From: a virus
Lineage: Duplodnaviria > Heunggongvirae > Uroviricota > Caudoviricetes
Virus record (IMG/VR): IMGVR_UViG_2609459826_000005
Span: 1-15,276 of that record
DNA: 15,276 nt
Reading direction: 5' to 3' (one strand)
Both the position numbers and the translations under genes were made by a program. A model generated the notes under the pieces. It was not told the DNA's origin. It saw nothing but the letters and a program-made list of their open reading frames with translations, and did not search any database. Shown piece after piece: positions 8,702-15,276 of this stretch (the stretch's first letter is position 1; the number at the start of each line of letters is the position of its first letter).

Positions 8702-9082
8702 ATGTTCAATCCAGATAAATACCGTTCTGTCGAGTGGCAGAAGGGCGGGCGCGCTTACCCCGCGCTTGACTGCTTTGGCATCGTCAACGAAATCAGGCGC
8801 GATCTGGGTCTGGATCCGTGGCCGGATTTCGCCGGAGTCACGAAGGATGATAACGGCCTAGATCGGGAAGCGCGCGGGCTGATTGCTGGCCTGACTCGAT
8901 GTGAACCGACCCCGGGCGCAGGTATCGCCTGTTATTCCGGCTCTGTTGTTACACACGTTGCCATCGTTGTCGAGATTGACGGCCAACTGCGCGCTGCGGA
9001 GTGCAATCCCCGCACTAACGTAACCTTTCTGCCGCTGGCGCGGTTTGCGCGCCGCTTTGTTCGCGTGGAGTATTACCAGTGA
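8702..9082 (+). CDS. NlpC/P60-family tail protein (gpK-like)
   Basis: 126 aa with putative catalytic Cys in ALDCFGIV and downstream His in VVTHVAIVVE, the Cys-His arrangement of NlpC/P60 peptidases; position equivalent to lambda K. Confidence 0.65.
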   Translation: MFNPDKYRSVEWQKGGRAYPALDCFGIVNEIRRDLGLDPWPDFAGVTKDDNGLDREARGLIAGLTRCEPTPGAGIACYSGSVVTHVAIVVEIDGQLRAAECNPRTNVTFLPLARFARRFVRVEYYQ

Positions 9083-12000
9083 CGATCCGTATCTATCCCT
9101 CCCGGTTGCCGGGCGAACCGTTGGAAACGCATCAACATGAAACGATGACCCTTAGCGCCTGGTTTGCGCAGAACGTGAAGGACTGGACGCCGGATCAGCA
9201 GCATCCGGTTGCGGTTGAAATCGACGGTGTCCCCGTCCCGCCGGCAGAGTGGACACTGCGCGTTATCAAGCGAGAAACAGACGTCAGGTTGTATCCGGTG
9301 CCATACGGTACCGGCGCAGAAATCGCTATCTGGGTTGCCGTCAGCGTAGCTGTCGCCTCTGCTGCGTACAGCATCTACATGATGAGTACAATGTCACAGG
9401 CGGGTGGCGGCGGTGCCCAGGCGGCCAGCGGAGACCAGATTGACCTCAACCCGGCCAAAGCGAACGCTGCGAAACTTGGTGATCCCATCCGGGAAATCTT
9501 CGGCAAATATCGGGTCTGGCCTGATTACGTTGTGCAGCCGGTAAGCCGGTTCGTCAACGAGACCAGCATGGAAACCAGCATGTTCCTGTGCGTGGGCGTC
9601 GGTGACATGGTGATTAACCAGTCCGATATCCGGATTGGCAATACGCCGATCTCCGCTTTCGGTACCGACGTGCGTTACACCATCTACCCACCTGGCACTA
9701 ATGTATCCGGCGACACGCGTACCGAAAACTGGTTCAACTCACCAGAGGTCGGGAATACCGGTTCCGGTACCGCCGGGCTGGACCTTGGCTCAAGCGGTCC
9801 GGAGACGGTCAGTATTATCGCTGACGCTCTGGTAGTGTCCGGAAACTCCATCACGCTCGTTGACGTATCGGCGTCAGGCGGCGATGAGGAGATCCCGCCG
9901 TCGTGGACTGTAGGAACGGTGATCACCGTGCTGGCGCCAAACTCTTATACGGTGGTGTCATCCGGCGGTTACAGCGTCATTTATGGCGGGATAGAGGAAC
10001 TTGCACCTTATGTCGGCATGCCGGTGACGCTGAACTATAACGGCAACGACTACGACCTGGTGATCGCCAGCTATGCCCCGGGCGTTCCGGCGGTACCCGG
10101 GGTTGGCGGCAGTGCCGCGACCTTAACCGCCAGCGCCGCGCCGACGACTTATGATTTCAGTACCGCACCTGTGACGTTCAGCATCAGCTGGCAGGGTACG
10201 ACCTACCCGGTCTCGCTGGTTACCAATTACGTCACCATGTCGGGTCTGGTTTCCTCGATCACCTCGCAGCTCTCAGGCTCCGGTCTGATTGCCAGAGATA
10301 ACAGTGGGCGTCTCGAAATCGGTGAGGCCAGCAGCCCGTTCGCTGGCGGTTCCATAACCAACAGCCCTTTACCCGCTGCTGTGTTCGGCGATGCGCCAGT
10401 CAATAAGGCGGGCGTGAAATCAACGGGCGGCACGGCGGAAGTCAGGGCGCACATTACCCTGGCTTACAACAGCGCCACCGGCACGCCGTTTACCGGGTTA
10501 CCGGAAGGCATTCAGCGGTTCTCGCTGGGGTTGGCTGGCAATCAGTTCCGGATCACCGATGTGGACAGCCAGACGGTCACGATTGAGCGGTTAACTGTGA
10601 CAACAGGCTCTGGCGGTGAAACCATCACGACGCCGGATCCATCGTGGCCTGGCTTCACTGAGCGCATGCTGCTGGATGCGACTGTAACGGGTGTCAGTGA
10701 CGATTATGAGTGGGTCGGCCCGTTCCTGGCCTGCCCGGACGGGGAAACGCTGGACGCATTCGAGGTGAACATCAACTTCCAGAGCGGCCTGGTGCGTTAT
10801 ACCGACCAGGGGAATAAACGCTCCATGCCGGTACGCCTGGTGATCCAGTATCGCAAGGTCGGCACCACCGCCTGGCAGCAGCAGTCTCCGTTCTATTCAC
10901 GCAGCACTGAAAACCAGATCGGGTTTACGCATCGCTACAGTGTGTCGCCGGGCCAATATGAGATCCGGATGCGCCGCACTGAACCGGTTAAGGGGGGCAG
11001 TACCCGCGACCAGGTATTCTGGCAGGCGCTGCGCTCACGACTCAGCAAGCGCCCCACGAAGTACAATGGTGTCACCACCATGGCGCTGACCGTGCGCACA
11101 GGGAATCGCCTGGCGGCCATGTCCGATCGCCGGATAAGCGTCACGCCAACCCGGATTTACAGTGGCGGCAGAACGGCGCGGAGCATTAGCGGGGCGCTTT
11201 ACCACGTCCTAGGGTCGCTGGGGTTCACGGCCAGTCAGATAGATACGGCGGCAATTGACGCGCTGGAACAAACCTACTGGACGCCACGCGGTGAGAAGTT
11301 CGACTGGGCGAGCGGGGAGAGCAAGTCAGCGCTTGAGGTATTGCAGAAAATCACCAACGCAGGGATGGGGTATTTTCTGCTGTCTGATGGGCTGGCGTCT
11401 GCCGGCAGGGAAGGCATTAAACCCTGGGTAGGCATGATCACCCCTCAGGAAACCACCGAGGAGCTGCAGACCGCGTTTAAAGCCCCGTCACAGGACGATT
11501 ACGACGGTGTGGACGTGACGTATATCAACGGCACCACCTGGGCAGAGGAGACCGTGCAGTGTCGCCTGCCTGGCAATCCTACGCCGTTGAAAATCGAGAG
11601 CTATACGCTGGATGGTGTTCTGGATGAGGACCGGGCCTACCGCATCGGCATGCGCCGGTTGCTGGGCTACCAGCTGCAGCGCCTGCAGCACACCACCTAC
11701 ACCGAGATGGATGCGCTCTGCTATGAGTTCATGGATCGCATAGTGCTGGCCGATGACATCCCGGGCAGCCAGACTCTTAGTTGCCTGATTACCGATATGA
11801 CGTATGACAGCAGCAAAATTACCATGACGCTAAGTGAGCCGCCGGACTGGTCGTTCCAGAACCCGCGCGTGATTATCCGCCATCAGGATGGCAGGGCATC
11901 AGCCATGGTGGTGCCGACACGCATTGACGACTTCACCATCTCGGTGCCGTACAGCGCCGCGCTGGAGCCCGAACTGTGGGCAATGAACGACGCGTACATT

Positions 12001-12165
12001 GAGCCGCCGCGACTGCTGTTCTGCTCGTCTGTGCGGGTGCCGTATGACGCCCTGGTAGGCGAAATATCACCGGGAAACGACGGTATCAGTCAGGTAACAG
12101 CAATTCAGTATCACCCCGGAAAATATGCCTACGATGACGCCACTTACCCCGGCGACGTTACTTAA
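9079..12165 (+). CDS. central tail fibre / tail tip protein with gpI-like N-terminal domain and gpJ-like core
   Basis: 1028 aa; GTG start overlaps upstream stop (GTGA). N-terminal ~200 aa resembles lambda gpI organisation (short soluble domain, hydrophobic stretch IAIWVAVSVAVASAAYSIYMM, then a PAKANAAKLG...IFGKYRV segment). Further in, QYEIRMRRTEPVKGGSTRDQVFWQALRS matches the lambda J NIRMRR...TLW motif as recalled. Confidence 0.75.
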   Translation: MTIRIYPSRLPGEPLETHQHETMTLSAWFAQNVKDWTPDQQHPVAVEIDGVPVPPAEWTLRVIKRETDVRLYPVPYGTGAEIAIWVAVSVAVASAAYSIYMMSTMSQAGGGGAQAASGDQIDLNPAKANAAKLGDPIREIFGKYRVWPDYVVQPVSRFVNETSMETSMFLCVGVGDMVINQSDIRIGNTPISAFGTDVRYTIYPPGTNVSGDTRTENWFNSPEVGNTGSGTAGLDLGSSGPETVSIIADALVVSGNSITLVDVSASGGDEEIPPSWTVGTVITVLAPNSYTVVSSGGYSVIYGGIEELAPYVGMPVTLNYNGNDYDLVIASYAPGVPAVPGVGGSAATLTASAAPTTYDFSTAPVTFSISWQGTTYPVSLVTNYVTMSGLVSSITSQLSGSGLIARDNSGRLEIGEASSPFAGGSITNSPLPAAVFGDAPVNKAGVKSTGGTAEVRAHITLAYNSATGTPFTGLPEGIQRFSLGLAGNQFRITDVDSQTVTIERLTVTTGSGGETITTPDPSWPGFTERMLLDATVTGVSDDYEWVGPFLACPDGETLDAFEVNINFQSGLVRYTDQGNKRSMPVRLVIQYRKVGTTAWQQQSPFYSRSTENQIGFTHRYSVSPGQYEIRMRRTEPVKGGSTRDQVFWQALRSRLSKRPTKYNGVTTMALTVRTGNRLAAMSDRRISVTPTRIYSGGRTARSISGALYHVLGSLGFTASQIDTAAIDALEQTYWTPRGEKFDWASGESKSALEVLQKITNAGMGYFLLSDGLASAGREGIKPWVGMITPQETTEELQTAFKAPSQDDYDGVDVTYINGTTWAEETVQCRLPGNPTPLKIESYTLDGVLDEDRAYRIGMRRLLGYQLQRLQHTTYTEMDALCYEFMDRIVLADDIPGSQTLSCLITDMTYDSSKITMTLSEPPDWSFQNPRVIIRHQDGRASAMVVPTRIDDFTISVPYSAALEPELWAMNDAYIEPPRLLFCSSVRVPYDALVGEISPGNDGISQVTAIQYHPGKYAYDDATYPGDVT

Positions 12166-12184
12166 CAGCATTTAAAAATTACCT

Positions 12185-12206
12185 GACCCGCTTCGGCGGG
12201 TTTTTT
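12185..12206 (+). terminator. rho-independent terminator (CCCGC-TTCG-GCGGG + T6) abutting the fibre gene
   Basis: 5 bp GC stem 12187-12191/12196-12200, tetraloop, six T at 12201-12206. Confidence 0.7.
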
Positions 12207-12221
12207 ATGCCCGGAGCGAGC

Positions 12222-13889
12222 ATGACCACATACCGCACGAATAATCCATTTGGGTCAATGGATCCGAAAGACCTTTTCGATAACTCCCAGAATCTTGACT
12301 ATGCCCTAAACGATATAACAAAATCCTTGTGGACAGACCGCTTAGGAAGAGTAAGGAAAAGTTATTGGGGAATGGAGCAGGCTTTTTCTGCTCAACTTAT
12401 CAGCCAGCAGCAAAGATTTAATTATTTCATTCAGAATTCAGGGTATAAAGTAATTGGTGAATATACCCAAGGTCCTCTGACTGTTACTGATTATAATCAA
12501 CTGATTCGCTATCAGAGTGAATTTTATAAATTAAATTCTTCTACTTCCATTCCATTTACCACTACGGGCAATGACTCCACGTCATGGTCAAACGATTCTT
12601 CACATTTTGTCAGTGTAGGGGATGCGGCCATTCGCCAAGAATTATCTGGTGCTGGCGGCTCAGGTTTGATTGGAGATTTACTCAAGCCTATCACGTGGGA
12701 TGGGTTTTCTGGAGGAGCGGCCTGGGACGGTGTAACCAATGATAATATTCCCTACCAGGCGGCAGCTCAATATGGTCGAAAATTTTTAATGCCATATGGC
12801 GTTGGAAATATAACAGAGTATTCAGTAGGTCTTTTTGCGCCGAATTTCTCTGTTCTTGGTGAGGCAGAGCAATTAGGCTCATTGCAATATCCTGTTGATG
12901 ATTTCCGTCCATCAAGGACGGATACAAAATACTCAAAGTATCACGAAACGGATCCAGCATCTAATCGATGGGATTCCTGTTCTATACATACAATTGTTAA
13001 ATGTCCTCAGGACGGTGCTAATCCAAAAGGAAATGCGGCAGCTGTAACTGGATATGCCAGGGCTATCAATAGCGAGGGTGGTGATCATGTTGGCGTACAT
13101 GGTAGAGCAGAAGGTGATACCAGTTACGACTTCGGTACTGGGATGGGGTTGTGGGGTGGATGGCTGTCAGCCGTTTACAGACCTAATACAGGCTCAGCTG
13201 GGAAGCCAATAAAGTCTATTATTGGTTGTGAGATTGACGTGCAAAATGATGGGCCACACGCACAAAACCCCAATCCGGATGGTGTTGGTGAGCTGCGTGG
13301 TCTCGCGGTAGGGAATACTGGCACCGGCCATCTTAATCAAGGCGTTGATGTATTCGCTAACAATAGCGGTGCGCGTGGAAGGTGGTGGATGGGCGTTCAC
13401 GTACGTGCTAATTCCATTGTAGGAAGACATCTGGTATCAACAGAGGGGGAAGTTGGTAATGCAATGGTGATTGCTGGAGCGGCATCGTCAGGGACGCGTT
13501 ACGGCGGATTAAAATTTAGTAAATATCCCTACACAGCGGTAGGACAAGGAGGTCATCTTTCTTATGGAATTGATTTCAGGGAGGCAACAATTCGCTTACA
13601 AAACGCGATTGTAATGGGGCCTCAGCACCGGATTACATGGGAGCCTGACACTGCAAAGGGTGTTGCGGTAGAGACAGAGGGAGGGGATGTAATTACTTTC
13701 CGGGGATATAACATAGCCATAAATAACTCCAAAGTTTTGGGGACTAGGCAAACTGGTATTTTTAATATGTCGGGGACGGCAGATGGAACCTCATACAATA
13801 CAGAAACCGTCACACTTGTAAATCTTGCCAGATACCTCAAGAAAGTAACTGATGCATTAATATTTCATGGCCTTATTGGCCCAACTTGA
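12222..13889 (+). CDS. tail fibre / tailspike protein (putative receptor-binding protein, possible depolymerase)
   Basis: 555 aa from ATG 12222 (in-frame ATG at 12207 abuts the terminator; CCCGGAG RBS serves 12222). Last large gene of the tail cluster; visibly lower GC than neighbours; Gly/Asn/Thr-rich C-terminal half suggestive of a beta-rich binding or enzymatic domain. Confidence 0.65.
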   Translation: MTTYRTNNPFGSMDPKDLFDNSQNLDYALNDITKSLWTDRLGRVRKSYWGMEQAFSAQLISQQQRFNYFIQNSGYKVIGEYTQGPLTVTDYNQLIRYQSEFYKLNSSTSIPFTTTGNDSTSWSNDSSHFVSVGDAAIRQELSGAGGSGLIGDLLKPITWDGFSGGAAWDGVTNDNIPYQAAAQYGRKFLMPYGVGNITEYSVGLFAPNFSVLGEAEQLGSLQYPVDDFRPSRTDTKYSKYHETDPASNRWDSCSIHTIVKCPQDGANPKGNAAAVTGYARAINSEGGDHVGVHGRAEGDTSYDFGTGMGLWGGWLSAVYRPNTGSAGKPIKSIIGCEIDVQNDGPHAQNPNPDGVGELRGLAVGNTGTGHLNQGVDVFANNSGARGRWWMGVHVRANSIVGRHLVSTEGEVGNAMVIAGAASSGTRYGGLKFSKYPYTAVGQGGHLSYGIDFREATIRLQNAIVMGPQHRITWEPDTAKGVAVETEGGDVITFRGYNIAINNSKVLGTRQTGIFNMSGTADGTSYNTETVTLVNLARYLKKVTDALIFHGLIGPT

Positions 13890-13915
13890 TTTAATAAATA
13901 TTCTGAGGATAATAA

Positions 13916-14083
13916 ATGGACAGCCAAGTAGTACAAAATATCATGCAATTTATGCTGCGTGTTAATCTTTCCGGACAGGAGGTCCCGGCGTTTAATGTTG
14001 CAATGAATGCATTGCAGGAAGAGTTGATCAAAAGTGAAAAAAACCATGAAAGGGAGGTTGAATAATGGCTTTGAAAACAAATG
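13916..14083 (+). CDS. small hypothetical protein (55 aa)
   Basis: ATG 13916 with GAGGA 6 nt upstream, in an AT-rich stretch right after the fibre gene; overlaps the next ORF by 19 nt. Below the 60 aa cut-off of the supplied ORF track; found by manual translation. Confidence 0.3.
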
Positions 14084-14310
14084 ATGCCGGTTCAGGGTTA
14101 TATATACGCGTCGAGTTACCACGCGTACATGGCAAATACCGTGCGCAGTTTGACCTTGTTCAATATGTTAACCACCCTGTCACAGGAGATAAGGCGGAAG
14201 TGGGTCGTGAAACAATGGAGTGTGATTACGATCTGAATGGAGCTAATGTAATTGAGCAATGCTACTTTTACGCCAAGGCCAAGGTGCCTTTTGGAGTTTT
14301 AGATTGCTAG
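14065..14310 (+). CDS. hypothetical protein (81 aa)
   Basis: ATG 14065 preceded by strong RBS AAGGGAGG at 14048-14056; no recognisable motif. Confidence 0.45.
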   Translation: MALKTNDAGSGLYIRVELPRVHGKYRAQFDLVQYVNHPVTGDKAEVGRETMECDYDLNGANVIEQCYFYAKAKVPFGVLDC

Positions 14311-14342
14311 GCTCTCGCGCAGATCTCTCTCCGATTGCACAT

Positions 14343-14609
14343 GCCATGGCTGCAGTAGCTGTGCAGTTATTACTTGCAATTACGTCTGGAAATTGGTGTT
14401 GTGGCGGTGTGCTGGGATGTTTATGGTTCATATCCAGAGAGCACACCCAAGCTGAATATCGCTGGATTGCTCAGTTCGGCGAAGGCAAGCGCGCCAACAT
14501 GCCTTGGTGGGGCGGGTTCGACTGGCGAGTGTGGAATCTGCCCAGCCTTCTCGACTGGCTGATTCCGGTGCTGGCCTGTAGTGTCGTTTATTTTGTCTCC
14601 ACCATCTGA
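14343..14609 (+). CDS. small two-helix membrane protein (88 aa), Trp-rich loop
   Basis: Start chosen at ATG 14343 because the listed start at 14259 lies inside the preceding ORF. Hydrophobic segments AAVAVQLLLAITSGNWCCGGVLGCLWFI and LLDWLIPVLACSVVYFVSTI flank a loop containing NMPWWGGFDWRVW. Confidence 0.45.
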   Translation, partial: AMAAVAVQLLLAITSGNWCCGGVLGCLWFISREHTQAEYRWIAQFGEGKRANMPWWGGFDWRVWNLPSLLDWLIPVLACSVVYFVSTI

Positions 14610-14665
14610 CTTCTGTAATCGGCATTGATAGGCGTCGCCTCATTGATCTGCACCCCTTTCAAAAC

Positions 14666-14685
14666 TACTGTATATAAAAACAGTA
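14666..14685 (+). promoter_or_regulatory. LexA (SOS) box TACTGTATATAAAAACAGTA
   Basis: CTGT-N8-ACAG with AT-rich spacer, 17/20 match to the E. coli consensus TACTGTATATATATACAGTA; sits directly upstream of AAGGAG (14687-14692) and the GTG start at 14702. Confidence 0.7.
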
Positions 14686-14701
14686 TAAAGGAGTGCAGAT
14701 C

Positions 14702-14941
14702 GTGCCCCGCAAATCAGACATTCACAGCGCATTTGTCGCTGCAATACAGCTAAATCCTAAGGGATACCAGTGTTTACGCACGGACGACTTTATTCGAGAA
14801 CTTGCCAAGGTGCACTGGCATTTCAGTCAGGAAGATGCCAATGACTGGATAGAGCGCTACCAGGAGTTCTTCGTCGATAAGACGCCTGATAACAGCCAGA
14901 ACAGGTTGTGGATCCTGCGCAACATGGGGAGGGTGCTCTGA
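14702..14941 (+). CDS. hypothetical protein (79 aa), first gene of a putative LexA-regulated operon
   Basis: GTG 14702 lies 9 nt after AAGGAG (the listed start at 14693 has zero spacing to the RBS). Stop TGA overlaps the ATG of the next gene (TGATG). No recognised motif. Confidence 0.5.
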   Translation: MPRKSDIHSAFVAAIQLNPKGYQCLRTDDFIRELAKVHWHFSQEDANDWIERYQEFFVDKTPDNSQNRLWILRNMGRVL

Positions 14942-15276
14942 TGGGGTTTCCTTCACCGGCGGGCGACTACGTAGAGCAGCGGTTAACACCGGAGCGTATC
15001 TGCGGGATCGGCATGGACAGCCGCATCCTCGAAACATCATCCGGCTTTGCCGTTATCGAGCCGTGCACCAGGCTGGTACAGAATCAGGTTCTGCTGATTT
15101 TGTCTGGCGGCCGGACTCAGTTTGCCCGGGTAATGGGTAGGGCGCTGATTTGTGATGATGGCGAAGCGATCGAAGGTGATGCAGCTGAAGAGGCTGAGGT
15201 TATGAGGCGGGTGACGCACTTTATCAACAGCACTGATGCTGCGATATCTCTTGAGGCGGCATTGGCGCAGTTTTGA
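14941..15276 (+). CDS. UmuD-like (LexA/S24 superfamily-related) protein, divergent
   Basis: 111 aa starting MGFPSPAGDYVEQRL, matching the N-terminal arm motif of UmuD/MucA (GFPSPAADYVEQRIDL / GFPSPAQGYEKQEL as recalled). The canonical GDSM serine and the catalytic lysine context are not evident. Stop codon is the last three bases of the window. Confidence 0.5.
   Translation: MGFPSPAGDYVEQRLTPERICGIGMDSRILETSSGFAVIEPCTRLVQNQVLLILSGGRTQFARVMGRALICDDGEAIEGDAAEEAEVMRRVTHFINSTDAAISLEAALAQF

What the first reader, a model, noticed from the sequence alone, without database searches (positions are those of the whole stretch)
13890..14609. Cluster of three small ORFs after the fibre gene, including a Trp-rich two-helix membrane protein
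The region downstream of tail fibre genes is a recognised hotspot for lysogenic-conversion and exclusion genes. Three small + strand ORFs with good RBSs lie here (55, 81 and 88 aa). The last has two predicted transmembrane helices and an unusual NMPWWGGFDWRVW loop. None matches a family I can name, so this may be an uncharacterised small-protein module.
Basis: partly seen in the sequence, partly recalled or inferred. Interest (0 to 1): 0.55.

Follow-up and report, generated by a model that had tools for sequence, protein, structure and literature searches.

The report
Fibre helper genes plus orphan membrane gene
The three small genes are real but are not one module: the first two travel with one type of phage tail-fibre tip and probably help build it, and the third is a very common but never-studied small membrane protein that many unrelated temperate phages carry as the last gene after their tail-fibre genes.

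Summary
All three ORFs are genuine genes under purifying selection, but two details of the observation are wrong. ORF1 is 49 aa, not 55. ORF3 most likely starts at TTG 14304 (101 aa), not at the RBS-less ATG 14346. They fall into two independent units.

- **ORF1 (13916-14065) and ORF2 (14065-14310).** Translationally coupled, low-GC, and imported with the tail-fibre gene. ORF2 homologues were found in 15 loci, including two isolated Aeromonas phages. In every one they follow a fibre ending in ...HGL(I/F/Y)..., whatever the fibre's N-terminal anchor. None of 49 other fibres has that ending. They are most likely fibre-tip accessory or assembly factors. ORF2 has an invariant His plus three Cys.
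- **ORF3.** It belongs to PHROG 1443, function unknown. The family is detected in 520 IMG/VR contigs and in 35% of complete E. coli genomes, and also as a chromosomal gene in Sphingomonadales and Leclercia. AlphaFold predicts three helices. ORF3 follows every kind of fibre and is optional. Its slot is empty, or holds a glycosyltransferase, in sister prophages.
- **Known families.** There is no Pfam, NCBIfam, PADLOC, PDB or fold match, so ORF3's function is inferred from position only.
- **Next door.** A LexA-box-controlled two-gene operon lies immediately downstream.

Overall this is ordinary prophage architecture containing uncharacterised genes.

The parts
12222..13889 (+). Tail fibre gene. 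Its N-terminal ~170 aa anchor is shared with sister prophages. Its C-terminus ends ...VLGTRQTG...ALIFHGLIGPT. It is the low-GC (45%) partner of ORF1/ORF2.
   Evidence: PHROG tail fibre families match residues 1-156. Gene callers give 555 aa. The HGL-type ending occurs in all 15 loci where ORF2 follows a fibre, and in 0 of 49 other fibres.
13916..14065 (+). ORF1, 49 aa, soluble and probably helical. The N-terminal ~35 aa are conserved (MDxQxIQNIMQFMLRVNLSGQEVPAFN..MNALQ.EL) and the acidic tail is variable. RBS GAGGA at 13905-13909.
   Evidence: Its N-terminus is 54% identical to that of ORF21 of Aeromonas phage AsC4_1. pN 0.24 against pS 0.80. In other loci it is replaced by an unrelated small ORF (METVSITF... 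type; hhalign probability 0.1%).
14065..14310 (+). ORF2, 81 aa. Its start overlaps the ORF1 stop, and its RBS is GGGAGG at 14052-14057. The predicted fold is four strands plus one helix. H37, C53, C66 and the C-terminal C81 are invariant.
   Evidence: 32 homologue clusters at 64-99% identity, all 80-81 aa except one 97-aa call. 62% identical to ORF23 of Aeromonas phage AsC4_1. AlphaFold pLDDT 77.7. No fold or PDB match.
14304..14609 (+). ORF3, 101 aa from TTG 14304 (alternative start ATG 14346). A PHROG 1443 small membrane protein, and optional cargo at the end of the fibre operon.
   Evidence: PHROG 1443 E=2.4e-39. 543 clusters. Three predicted helices. Insertion boundaries were defined against L077, which lacks ORF3. 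The TTG start is conserved in L177.
14496..14534 (+). Codons for the Trp-rich motif NMPWWGGFDWRVW (residues 65-77). This is the end of the charged loop that precedes the last hydrophobic helix.
   Evidence: W77 is invariant across 91 divergent family members.
14666..14685 (+). LexA (SOS) box TACTGTATATAAAAACAGTA in the promoter region of ORF4-ORF5. It marks the right-hand boundary of the ORF3 slot.
   Evidence: The only CTGT-N8-ACAG match in the window, against 0.18 expected by chance. Conserved in L001, L002 and L077 and in 34 of 79 IMG/VR loci.
14702..14941 (+). ORF4, 79 aa (GTG start, RBS AAGGAG at 14688-14693). First gene of the LexA-box operon. Not part of the reported finding, but it is a frequent neighbour of ORF3.
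   Evidence: phrog_3893 E=2.4e-41. Homologues occur in HK225, HK140, mEp390 and Klebsiella phages, all annotated as hypothetical.
14941..15276 (+). ORF5, 111 aa. It begins MGFPSPAGDYVEQR, which resembles the N-terminus of cleaved UmuD' or P1 HumD (from my knowledge of those sequences). The rest matches no family outside PHROG 3469.
   Evidence: phrog_3469 'UmuD-like' E=1.4e-43. The NCBIfam HumD model matches residues 1-24 only, at 25.5 bits against a cut-off of 120. No Peptidase_S24 hit.

Best explanation
The interval 13890-14609 is the junction of two independent units at the right end of a lambda-J-type siphovirus prophage. Relatives of this prophage are integrated next to yciB/ompW/trp.

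**Unit 1: fibre, ORF1 and ORF2**
- Shown: this is an imported, low-GC receptor-binding cassette.
- Shown: ORF2, with a replaceable small partner such as ORF1, always accompanies fibres that end ...GRQTG...HGL(I/F/Y)... The fibre's N-terminal anchor makes no difference.
- Inferred: ORF1 and ORF2 are cytoplasmic accessory factors of that fibre tip. They would act as folding or trimerisation chaperones, or as a small distal subunit.
- Inferred: ORF2 uses its invariant His-Cys-Cys-Cys as a structural metal site.
- My probability is about 0.7 that they are fibre-linked, and about 0.4 for a chaperone role specifically.

**Unit 2: ORF3**
- Shown: ORF3 is a member of PHROG 1443. This is a very widespread family of ~97-aa small membrane proteins.
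- Shown: it is optional cargo, placed as the last gene of the tail-fibre operon in many unrelated phage types.
- Shown: in this window it was joined directly onto the ORF2 stop codon. It lost its own RBS and ATG and restarts at a TTG inside the end of ORF2, so it is translationally coupled to the fibre cassette.
- Inferred topology: helix 1 crosses the membrane outward, a very short periplasmic turn follows, and helix 2 returns. A conserved, K/R-rich and Trp-rich loop lies at the cytoplasmic face, and helix 3 leaves the C-terminus outside.
- Inferred: the near-invariant polar residues H13, R45, E46, Q49, E51 and D84 then cluster at the cytoplasmic leaflet, as a binding or catalytic site.
- Inferred mechanism: ORF3 is made together with the fibre genes. 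It acts on a conserved inner-membrane component of the host to protect the infected or lysogenic cell envelope. The most likely effect is blocking entry of superinfecting phage DNA. My probability for this specific effect is about 0.25.

The overall confidence of 0.6 refers to the two-unit architecture and the family assignments, not to the inferred mechanisms.
For: **The ORFs are real genes**
- ORF coordinates and sequence.
- Purifying selection.

**The fibre, ORF1 and ORF2 form an imported unit**
- GC content steps from 59% (J) to 45/40/45% (fibre, ORF1, ORF2), then to 54% (ORF3).
- ORF2 homologues follow an HGL-ended fibre in 15 of 15 loci, representing 8 distinct fibre C-termini. None of 49 distinct other fibres has this ending (Fisher p = 6e-10).
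- The fibre anchors in these loci differ: J-type, P22 head-binding type, and two Aeromonas phage types.
- In Aeromonas phage AsC4_1 the cassette is followed by a minor tail protein gene.
- ORF2 invariant residues are listed.

**ORF3 is a widespread, independent, optional gene**
- PHROG 1443 match, E=2.4e-39.
- 543 clusters at 90% identity and 389 clusters at 50% identity, all 63-142 aa with no domain fusions.
- 520 IMG/VR contigs encode a relative.
- 1,891 of 5,426 complete E. coli genomes have a match.
- In 67 of 79 viral loci it starts within 60 nt of, or overlapping, an upstream same-strand gene. That gene is usually a fibre or spike of almost any type.
- It is found after stf/tfa-like genes in phage 21 and lambda-like phages, and after a P22-type tailspike.
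- It lies between the tailspike and the lysis genes in a Uetakevirus.
- It lies in the P2 Z/fun-equivalent slot of phiHAP-1.
- It is absent from L077, and a GT2 gene occupies its place in L076.

**ORF3 structure and start**
- Three-helix model.
- Family-wide conservation and charge distribution: the loop at 45-78 averages 5.3 K/R, and the turn at 28-31 averages 0.07.
- The TTG junction is conserved in L177.
Against: **No functional evidence**
- No functional test exists for any of the three proteins.
- A hitch-hiking cargo gene would show the same linkage to the fibre tip.
- ORF1 is replaceable by an unrelated small ORF and is absent in Aeromonas phage AS2.

**Against an exclusion role for ORF3**
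- The exclusion proposal rests on position and analogy only.
- The family is conserved regardless of tail type.
- It occurs as a lone chromosomal gene among housekeeping genes in Sphingomonadales and Leclercia.
- It occurs in lytic jumbo Aeromonas phages.
- It usually lacks room for its own promoter.
- All of these fit a general membrane-physiology or lytic-cycle role at least as well.

**Topology is unresolved**
- The deposited annotation of the phage 21 homologue reports 2 TMDs and a signal peptide.
Confidence: 0.6

Rival explanations
1. One reading: ORF1, ORF2 and ORF3 form one lysogenic-conversion or exclusion module that works together.
For: The three are contiguous, co-oriented and translationally coupled in the window. 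They are syntenic with intact frames in a relative at 82% nucleotide identity. The region is a cargo hotspot.
Against: - Only 1 of 79 viral loci with ORF3 relatives also has ORF1/ORF2 hits, and not adjacent.
- ORF2 homologues mostly occur without ORF3.
- ORF2 sits inside the tail module of an isolated Aeromonas phage.
- GC content differs between ORF1/ORF2 and ORF3.
- The ORF2/ORF3 junction is a secondary fusion that removed ORF3's native start.
Confidence: 0.05
2. ORF3 is an envelope-modifying conversion factor. It would be a small membrane enzyme, or an inhibitor of a surface-polysaccharide or lipid pathway, that changes the receptor landscape, as gtrABC, O-acetylases and Wzy inhibitors do.
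For: - It occupies the slot that holds a GT2 glycosyltransferase in sister prophages.
- It lies next to an acyltransferase-bearing fibre region in E. coli CUPF06.
- It sits where gtr or oac genes sit in P22-like and epsilon15-like phages (established knowledge; contexts).
- Near-invariant H, R-E, E and D residues lie at one membrane face.
Against: - There is no similarity to GtrA, acyltransferases or any enzyme family.
- Its sequence does not co-vary with fibre type.
- It is present in Sphingomonadales, which lack classical LPS (established knowledge; loci).
- It is mostly coupled to the late operon.
Confidence: 0.17
3. ORF3 acts in the lytic cycle as a lysis-timing or membrane-integrity factor, either holin-like or antiholin-like.
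For: - It is a ~100-aa protein with two or three hydrophobic helices.
- It is the last gene of a late operon.
- It lies immediately upstream of a membrane protein, holin and endolysin cassette in phiv142-3.
- It is present in lytic jumbo phages.
Against: - It has no charged C-terminal tail. The protein ends in the last helix.
- It is far from the lysis genes in lambda-like and J-type prophages.
- It is optional in otherwise identical prophages.
- Chromosomal stand-alone copies exist.
- Only 1 of 91 family members shows a weak match to a holin Pfam model.
Confidence: 0.1
4. ORF1/ORF2 are passenger genes, for example anti-defence or host-takeover proteins, that merely hitch-hike in the recombining fibre cassette and have no role in the fibre.
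For: - No similarity to any tail-fibre assembly family.
- The ORF2 fold has no structural match.
- ORF1 is replaceable by an unrelated ORF.
- ORF2 is truncated in one locus, L170.
Against: - The association with one fibre C-terminal type is perfect across four different tail anchors and two bacterial orders.
- 62% identity is maintained between the Aeromonas and enterobacterial versions.
- ORF2 lies between the fibre and a minor tail protein gene in AsC4_1.
Confidence: 0.2

Closest known systems
PHROG 1443 (for example phage 21 CPT_21_24, 'putative membrane protein', and 'FIG00639861 hypothetical protein' of lambda-like ev phages)
   Same: ORF3 matches the profile at E=2.4e-39 over 93 of 97 positions. 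It is 58% identical to the phage 21 protein. Both occupy the same position as the last gene after the side-tail-fibre genes.
   Different: The window copy has lost the family's usual RBS and ATG and starts at a TTG inside ORF2. The family itself has no assigned function.
Phage inner-membrane superinfection-exclusion proteins (HK97 gp15, T4 Imm, P22 SieA)
   Same: All are small phage-encoded inner-membrane proteins that are dispensable for growth and often encoded near tail genes (established knowledge). ORF3 is small, membrane-embedded, optional and adjacent to the fibre.
   Different: - There is no sequence relationship. The only PHROG hits are 1443 and 34165, both of unknown function, and PADLOC returns nothing.
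- ORF3 is conserved across tail types and in non-phage chromosomal loci.
- It usually has no promoter of its own.
Tail-fibre assembly chaperones and adhesin partners (lambda Tfa, P2 G, Mu U, T4 gp38/gp57A)
   Same: The ORF1/ORF2 genes lie immediately 3' of the fibre gene. They are translationally coupled and move with the fibre's C-terminal domain between different tails.
   Different: - No homology to the Caudo_TAP family or any other family.
- ORF2 is only 81 aa, with an invariant H/C/C/C set.
- There are two small proteins rather than one of ~190 aa.
Fibre-adjacent lysogenic-conversion cargo (gtrABC, O-acetyltransferases, GT2 glycosyltransferases; the Z/fun slot of P2)
   Same: ORF3 occupies the same genomic slot between the receptor-binding genes and the prophage end, or the next module.
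   Different: Those genes are usually independent transcription units with recognisable enzyme domains. ORF3 has neither.
Class I holins
   Same: Similar size (~100 aa), up to three hydrophobic helices, and late expression.
   Different: ORF3 has no hydrophilic charged C-terminus, is not next to an endolysin in this window, and has non-phage chromosomal homologues.

Membership tests
PHROG 1443 (uncharacterised phage membrane protein) | Significant full-length match to the family HMM | tested here: met
   E=2.4e-39, covering profile positions 2-94 of 97.
PHROG 1443 (uncharacterised phage membrane protein) | Family signature residues (H13, R45-E46, Q49, E51, W77, D84, P88) present | tested here: met
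   All are present in the window protein. They are 90-100% conserved in 91 divergent members.
Any Pfam / NCBIfam / PADLOC family (ORF1, ORF2, ORF3) | HMM match at or near the curated cut-off | tested here: not met
   No hits for ORF2 or ORF3. ORF1's only Pfam hit (NET2A_C, E=0.012, 15.9 bits) is below the cut-off of 27. 91 divergent ORF3 relatives also give no consistent Pfam family.
Class I holin | Hydrophobic transmembrane helices in a ~100-aa protein | tested here: met
   AlphaFold helices at 9-28, 31-58 and 79-100, plus the hydropathy profile.
Class I holin | Highly charged hydrophilic C-terminal tail | tested here: not met
   The protein ends ...VVYFVSTI, inside the last helix. The mean C-terminal K/R count is 0.56 over ~5 residues.
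Class I holin | Gene adjacent to an endolysin or spanin | tested here: not met
   The neighbours in the window are the fibre cassette and the LexA-box operon. Only the Uetakevirus context is near lysis genes.
Inner-membrane superinfection-exclusion proteins (HK97 gp15 / T4 Imm / P22 SieA) | Sequence membership in one of those families | tested here: not met
   PHROG hits are only 1443 and 34165 (unknown function). PADLOC returns nothing.
Inner-membrane superinfection-exclusion proteins (HK97 gp15 / T4 Imm / P22 SieA) | Blocks DNA entry of superinfecting phage when expressed alone | not testable with these tools
   This needs a phage-challenge and DNA-entry assay.
Exclusion lipoproteins (Cor / Llp type) | Signal peptide with a conserved lipobox cysteine | tested here: not met
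   The VLGC at residues 36-39 resembles a lipobox, but C39 is not conserved in the wider family, where the commonest residue is Ala at 29%.
GtrA-like flippase / O-antigen modification genes | GtrA (PF04138), acyltransferase or glycosyltransferase domain | tested here: not met
   No Pfam hit at E<=1.
Tail-fibre assembly proteins (Tfa / Caudo_TAP, gp38, gp57A) for ORF1/ORF2 | Sequence or fold similarity to a known chaperone family | tested here: not met
Tail-fibre assembly proteins (Tfa / Caudo_TAP, gp38, gp57A) for ORF1/ORF2 | Gene immediately 3' of the fibre gene and co-varying with the fibre's C-terminal domain | tested here: met
   15 of 15 loci, against 0 of 49 other fibres.
Tail-fibre assembly proteins (Tfa / Caudo_TAP, gp38, gp57A) for ORF1/ORF2 | Required for fibre folding or trimerisation | not testable with these tools
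   This needs deletion and co-expression experiments.

The most novel reading that the evidence does not exclude
PHROG 1443 (the ORF3 family) would be a new class of small inner-membrane effector. Its conserved site at the cytoplasmic face (H13, R45-E46, Q49, E51, D84 and the Trp-rich loop) would act on a host membrane component conserved across Proteobacteria. Phages of at least five tail architectures would have captured it from bacterial chromosomes and attached it to their fibre operons. It would then be a general, tail-type-independent protection or exclusion mechanism, present in about a third of E. coli genomes. Separately, ORF2 would define a new metal-binding chaperone or adaptor family specific to HGL-ended fibre tips.
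Probability: 0.2. Interest if true: 0.65.

Novelty: new member of a known kind. Interest (0 to 1): 0.3.

Why it matters
- **Annotation.** The work corrects how this locus should be annotated. It is two units, not one module. ORF3 starts at TTG 14304. A LexA-controlled operon lies next door.
- **An abundant unknown.** PHROG 1443 is among the commoner prophage genes of unknown function. It is detectable in 35% of complete E. coli genomes, often in several copies. It always sits at the end of fibre operons, yet it is also chromosomal in some bacteria. A phenotype would apply to hundreds of phages at once.
- **Fibre engineering.** The strict pairing of ORF2 with one fibre-tip type is practically useful for receptor-binding-protein swapping. 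Anyone transplanting such a fibre should probably move ORF1/ORF2 with it.
- **Limits.** Nothing here is surprising enough to change current views. The value lies in cataloguing and in defining testable hypotheses.

Tried and rejected
**Searches that found nothing useful**
- Pfam, NCBIfam and PADLOC scans of all ORFs: no family.
- Pfam scan of 91 divergent ORF3 relatives: only scattered chance hits.
- Megablast of the region against INPHARED phages: no match.
- The AFDB50 library was unavailable.
- PDB sequence and profile searches for ORF3, ORF2 and the fibre: nothing.
- Rfam scan of 13500-15276: nothing.
- hhalign of ORF1-type against METVSITF-type small ORFs: no relationship.
- Cluster look-up of divergent ORF3 relatives: unnamed metagenomic proteins only.
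- Literature searches for the PHROG id, the motif and a UniRef name (Ybl63): nothing relevant.
- The Mathieu et al. paper on lambda morons does not discuss this gene.

**Ideas rejected**
- Spurious ORFs. Rejected on conservation and substitution pattern.
- ORF3 as part of the SOS operon. It lies upstream of the LexA-box promoter, and ORF4/5 occur without it.
- ORF3 as a lipoprotein. The cysteine is not conserved.
- A conserved chromosomal neighbour that might hint at function. Neighbours in alphaproteobacteria are unrelated housekeeping genes.
- Minus-strand ORFs in the interval (13865-14122, 14243-14446, 14428-14643). Gene callers did not call them in any related locus, and I treated them as shadows of the + strand genes.
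Full report
**1. What is in the sequence**

The + strand between the fibre stop codon (13889) and 14609 carries three ORFs.

| ORF | Coordinates | Length | Start signals |
|---|---|---|---|
| ORF1 | 13916-14065 | 49 aa | RBS GAGGA, 6 nt upstream |
| ORF2 | 14065-14310 | 81 aa | RBS GGGAGG; ATG overlaps the ORF1 stop |
| ORF3 | within open frame 14259..14609 | 101 aa from TTG 14304 | GGAG at 14293-14296; TTG overlaps the ORF2 stop |

Homologues also begin about nine residues earlier. At the position of the family's usual Met, the window has CGC (14316). Database gene calls use TTG 14304. P0001 is 100% identical and seen on 61 contigs. That TTG lies 7 nt after GGAG (14293-14296) and overlaps the ORF2 stop at 14308-14310.

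In an E. coli relative (L177) the whole fibre-to-ORF5 block is colinear at 82% nucleotide identity. There the TTG is conserved, while ATG 14346 is GTG.

All three ORFs are under purifying selection. For ORF1 and ORF2, pN is 0.16-0.25 against saturated pS of 0.8-1.0. For ORF3, dN/dS is 0.20-0.25. The Trp-rich motif NMPWWGGFDWRVW lies at 14496-14534, and 8 of ORF3's 101 residues are Trp.

**2. Genomic setting**

The window is the tail end of a prophage. It carries a tape-measure protein, a lambda-J-like host-specificity protein (9079-12165) and a fibre.

In related contigs the ORF order is J, fibre, 49 aa, 81 aa, 101 aa, 79 aa, 111 aa. Hemerythrin, DinI and resolvase genes sometimes follow. The bacterial genes yciA/yciB/yciC/ompW/trp come next.

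GC content falls from 59% in J to 45% (fibre), 40% (ORF1) and 45% (ORF2). It returns to 54% (ORF3), 51% (ORF4) and 56% (ORF5). This suggests that the fibre, ORF1 and ORF2 were imported together.

**3. ORF1 and ORF2 belong to the fibre**

ORF2 has 32 homologue clusters at 64-99% identity. All are 80-81 aa except one 97-aa call. I examined 15 loci that carry an ORF2 homologue:
- sister prophages in E. coli and Enterobacter
- nine IMG/VR contigs
- the isolated Aeromonas phages AsC4_1 and AS2

In every one, the gene follows a fibre whose last residues are ...HGL(I/F/Y)... These represent 8 distinct C-termini. None of 49 distinct fibres that lack a downstream ORF2 has this ending (Fisher p = 6e-10). 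The loci are not phylogenetically independent, so this p-value overstates the strength.

The N-terminal anchors of these fibres differ. They include the J-prophage type, the P22 head-binding type, others, and Aeromonas phage types. The unit that moves is therefore the fibre tip together with ORF2.

In AsC4_1, ORF20 is the fibre and is 50% identical to the Enterobacter prophage fibre. The genes that follow are:
- ORF21, whose N-terminus is 54% identical to ORF1
- ORF22
- ORF23, which is 62% identical to ORF2
- a minor tail protein gene

The cassette therefore lies inside the tail module.

ORF1 is less constant. Other loci have an unrelated small ORF of the METVSITF... type (hhalign probability 0.1%). 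AS2 has no small ORF there at all.

ORF2 has no signal peptide that I can see by reading the sequence. H37, C53, C66 and its last residue C81 are invariant. The AlphaFold model (pLDDT 77.7) is a four-stranded sheet plus one helix. It has no informative structural neighbour.

Inference: ORF2, with ORF1, is an accessory factor of this fibre-tip type. It could be a chaperone or a small distal subunit, possibly metal-binding. It works like a Tfa-class partner but is not a member of any known chaperone family.

**4. ORF3 is an independent, very common, uncharacterised membrane protein**

*Abundance.*
- It matches PHROG 1443 (unknown function) at E=2.4e-39.
- It has 543 homologue clusters at 90% identity.
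- A profile search of 1.84 billion representatives found 389 clusters, all 63-142 aa, with no fused domains.
- No Pfam family appears even among 91 divergent members.
- 520 IMG/VR contigs encode a relative.
- The conserved core is detectable by blastn in 1,891 of 5,426 complete E. coli genomes. The median is 2 copies and the maximum 7, and every copy listed is annotated as hypothetical.

*Position.* In 67 of 79 viral loci the gene starts within 60 nt of an upstream same-strand gene. In 29 of those it overlaps that gene. The upstream gene is a fibre or spike of almost any C-terminal type.

| Phage or prophage | Where the ORF3 homologue sits |
|---|---|
| Phage 21 and lambda-like phages | After stf and a small tfa-like gene |
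| P22-like prophage | After the tailspike |
| Uetakevirus phiv142-3 | Between the tailspike and the lysis genes |
| Lytic jumbo Aeromonas phages | Next to DarB-like and HNH genes, upstream of a tail fibre gene |

*Optional.* Enterobacter prophages with the same J, fibre, ORF2, ORF4 and ORF5 have nothing in the slot. E. coli E3 and several IMG/VR contigs have a GT2 glycosyltransferase there on the opposite strand. A DNA alignment places the ORF3 insertion exactly between the ORF2 stop and the conserved ORF4 promoter region.

*Non-phage copies.* Homologues also occur as lone chromosomal genes among housekeeping genes. In Sphingomonadales the neighbours include ligA, pnp, ftsZ and nadB-like genes. 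In Leclercia the gene sits at a conserved dcp-to-urt locus.

**5. Anatomy of ORF3**

AlphaFold (pLDDT 81.5) predicts helices at 9-28, 31-58 and 79-100.

Across 91 divergent members, conservation is as follows.

| Residue | Conservation |
|---|---|
| R45, E46, W77 | 100% |
| H13, P88 | 98% |
| E51 | 96% |
| Q49 | 95% |
| R53 | 93% K/R |
| D84 | 90% |

The turn at 28-31 carries almost no K/R (mean 0.07). The segment 45-78 averages 5.3 K/R. By the positive-inside rule, the conserved RE..QAE.R...MPWWGGF..R.W segment is cytoplasmic. The conserved polar residues then cluster at the cytoplasmic leaflet.

This topology is inferred. The deposited annotation of the phage 21 homologue reports two TMDs and a signal peptide. 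No structural or sequence neighbour suggests a function.

**6. How it most likely works**

*Shown:*
- The interval contains two separable units.
- ORF1/ORF2 are linked to one fibre-tip type.
- ORF3 is optional, fibre-type-agnostic cargo at the end of the fibre operon. In this window it is translationally coupled to ORF2.

*Inferred:*
- ORF1/ORF2 assist assembly of the HGL-type fibre tip. I put about 0.7 on their being fibre-linked and about 0.4 on a chaperone role.
- ORF3 is co-expressed with the late tail genes and acts at the inner membrane through its conserved cytoplasmic-face site.
- My preferred effect is protection of the infected or lysogenic cell against incoming phage DNA (about 0.25).
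- The rivals are envelope modification (about 0.17) and lysis or membrane-integrity control (about 0.1). The remaining probability is unassigned.

Three observations caution against a purely phage-defensive reading: the chromosomal copies, the presence in lytic phages, and the lack of a dedicated promoter.

**7. Comparison with known systems and novelty**

ORF3 is a member of PHROG 1443, a catalogued family of unknown function. It is not a member of the holin, Sie, Cor/Llp or GtrA families. The defining features I tested were not met.

ORF1/ORF2 behave like fibre chaperone genes in position and co-variation but are not members of any chaperone family.

The locus is a new member of known, uncharacterised kinds. 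The architecture is ordinary for temperate phages: a fibre cassette, then a cargo slot, then an SOS operon at the prophage end.

**8. Verdict**

The 'module' interpretation is not supported, while the 'uncharacterised genes in a cargo hotspot' part is.

Interest is modest at 0.3. The most useful outputs are:
- the corrected gene model
- the pairing of ORF2 with the HGL fibre tip
- the recognition that ORF3 belongs to a very abundant orphan family that is worth one well-designed experiment

Noticed in passing
window 14666-15276: A perfect LexA box (TACTGTATATAAAAACAGTA, 14666-14685) lies just upstream of a two-gene operon. ORF4 (14702-14941, 79 aa) matches phrog_3893. ORF5 (14941-15276, 111 aa) begins with the N-terminal arm of cleaved UmuD' or P1 HumD but has no detectable S24 peptidase domain. 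The pair is conserved at prophage ends in many enterobacterial phages (HK225, HK140, mEp390, Klebsiella phages). By analogy with the LexA-controlled Gifsy antirepressors (PMC3121763) it could be an SOS-triggered induction or mutagenesis module. I did not test that.
   Followed up: partly
window ~14311-14620; L076 3722-4903; L077 5247-5355: The slot between the fibre cassette and the ORF4 promoter is a cargo hotspot. It is empty in Enterobacter prophages. It holds a GT2 glycosyltransferase on the opposite strand in E. coli E3 and in four IMG/VR contigs. It holds ORF3 in this window.
   Followed up: yes
window 13700-13889 (fibre C-terminus): The fibre ends ...VLGTRQTGIFNMSGT...LARYLKKVTDALIFHGLIGPT. 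This ending is shared by fibres and spikes with quite different N-terminal anchors, including P22-type head-binding domains and Aeromonas phage fibres. It gives a weak match to the 'tail needle' PHROG 1219 (fibre residues 503-535). The fibre has no Pfam or PDB match.
   Followed up: partly
window 12100-14310: GC content drops abruptly from ~59% (J) to 40-45% across the fibre, ORF1 and ORF2, then rises to 54% in ORF3. This fits recent horizontal acquisition of the receptor-binding cassette.
   Followed up: yes
L170 4001-4129 (IMGVR_UViG_3300045988_107072): In this contig the ORF2 homologue is truncated to 42 aa, even though the fibre's C-terminal 401 aa are 94% identical to the window's. A second ORF3-family gene lies upstream of that fibre, between two fibre genes.
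   Followed up: no
L054, L073, L014-L018, L061 (genome loci): ORF3-family genes occur as lone chromosomal genes next to pnp, ligA, ftsZ, a PhyH-like dioxygenase and similar genes in Sphingomonadales, and at a conserved dcp-to-urt locus in Leclercia. No phage genes were identified among the neighbours examined. The direction of transfer between phage and host is unknown.
   Followed up: partly
L003 11165-12609 (downstream of the window's end): In the longer related contigs the prophage continues past ORF5 with a hemerythrin-domain gene, a DinI homologue on the opposite strand and a resolvase/invertase, before yciA/yciB. Other copies (L004, L008) end directly after ORF5. The window stops exactly at the ORF5 stop codon.
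   Followed up: no
L175 3417-3680 (Aeromonas phage PS1, 237 kb): A shortened ORF3-family gene sits in a lytic jumbo phage directly after a DarB-like antirestriction gene. An HNH endonuclease gene and then a tail fibre gene follow it.
   Followed up: no
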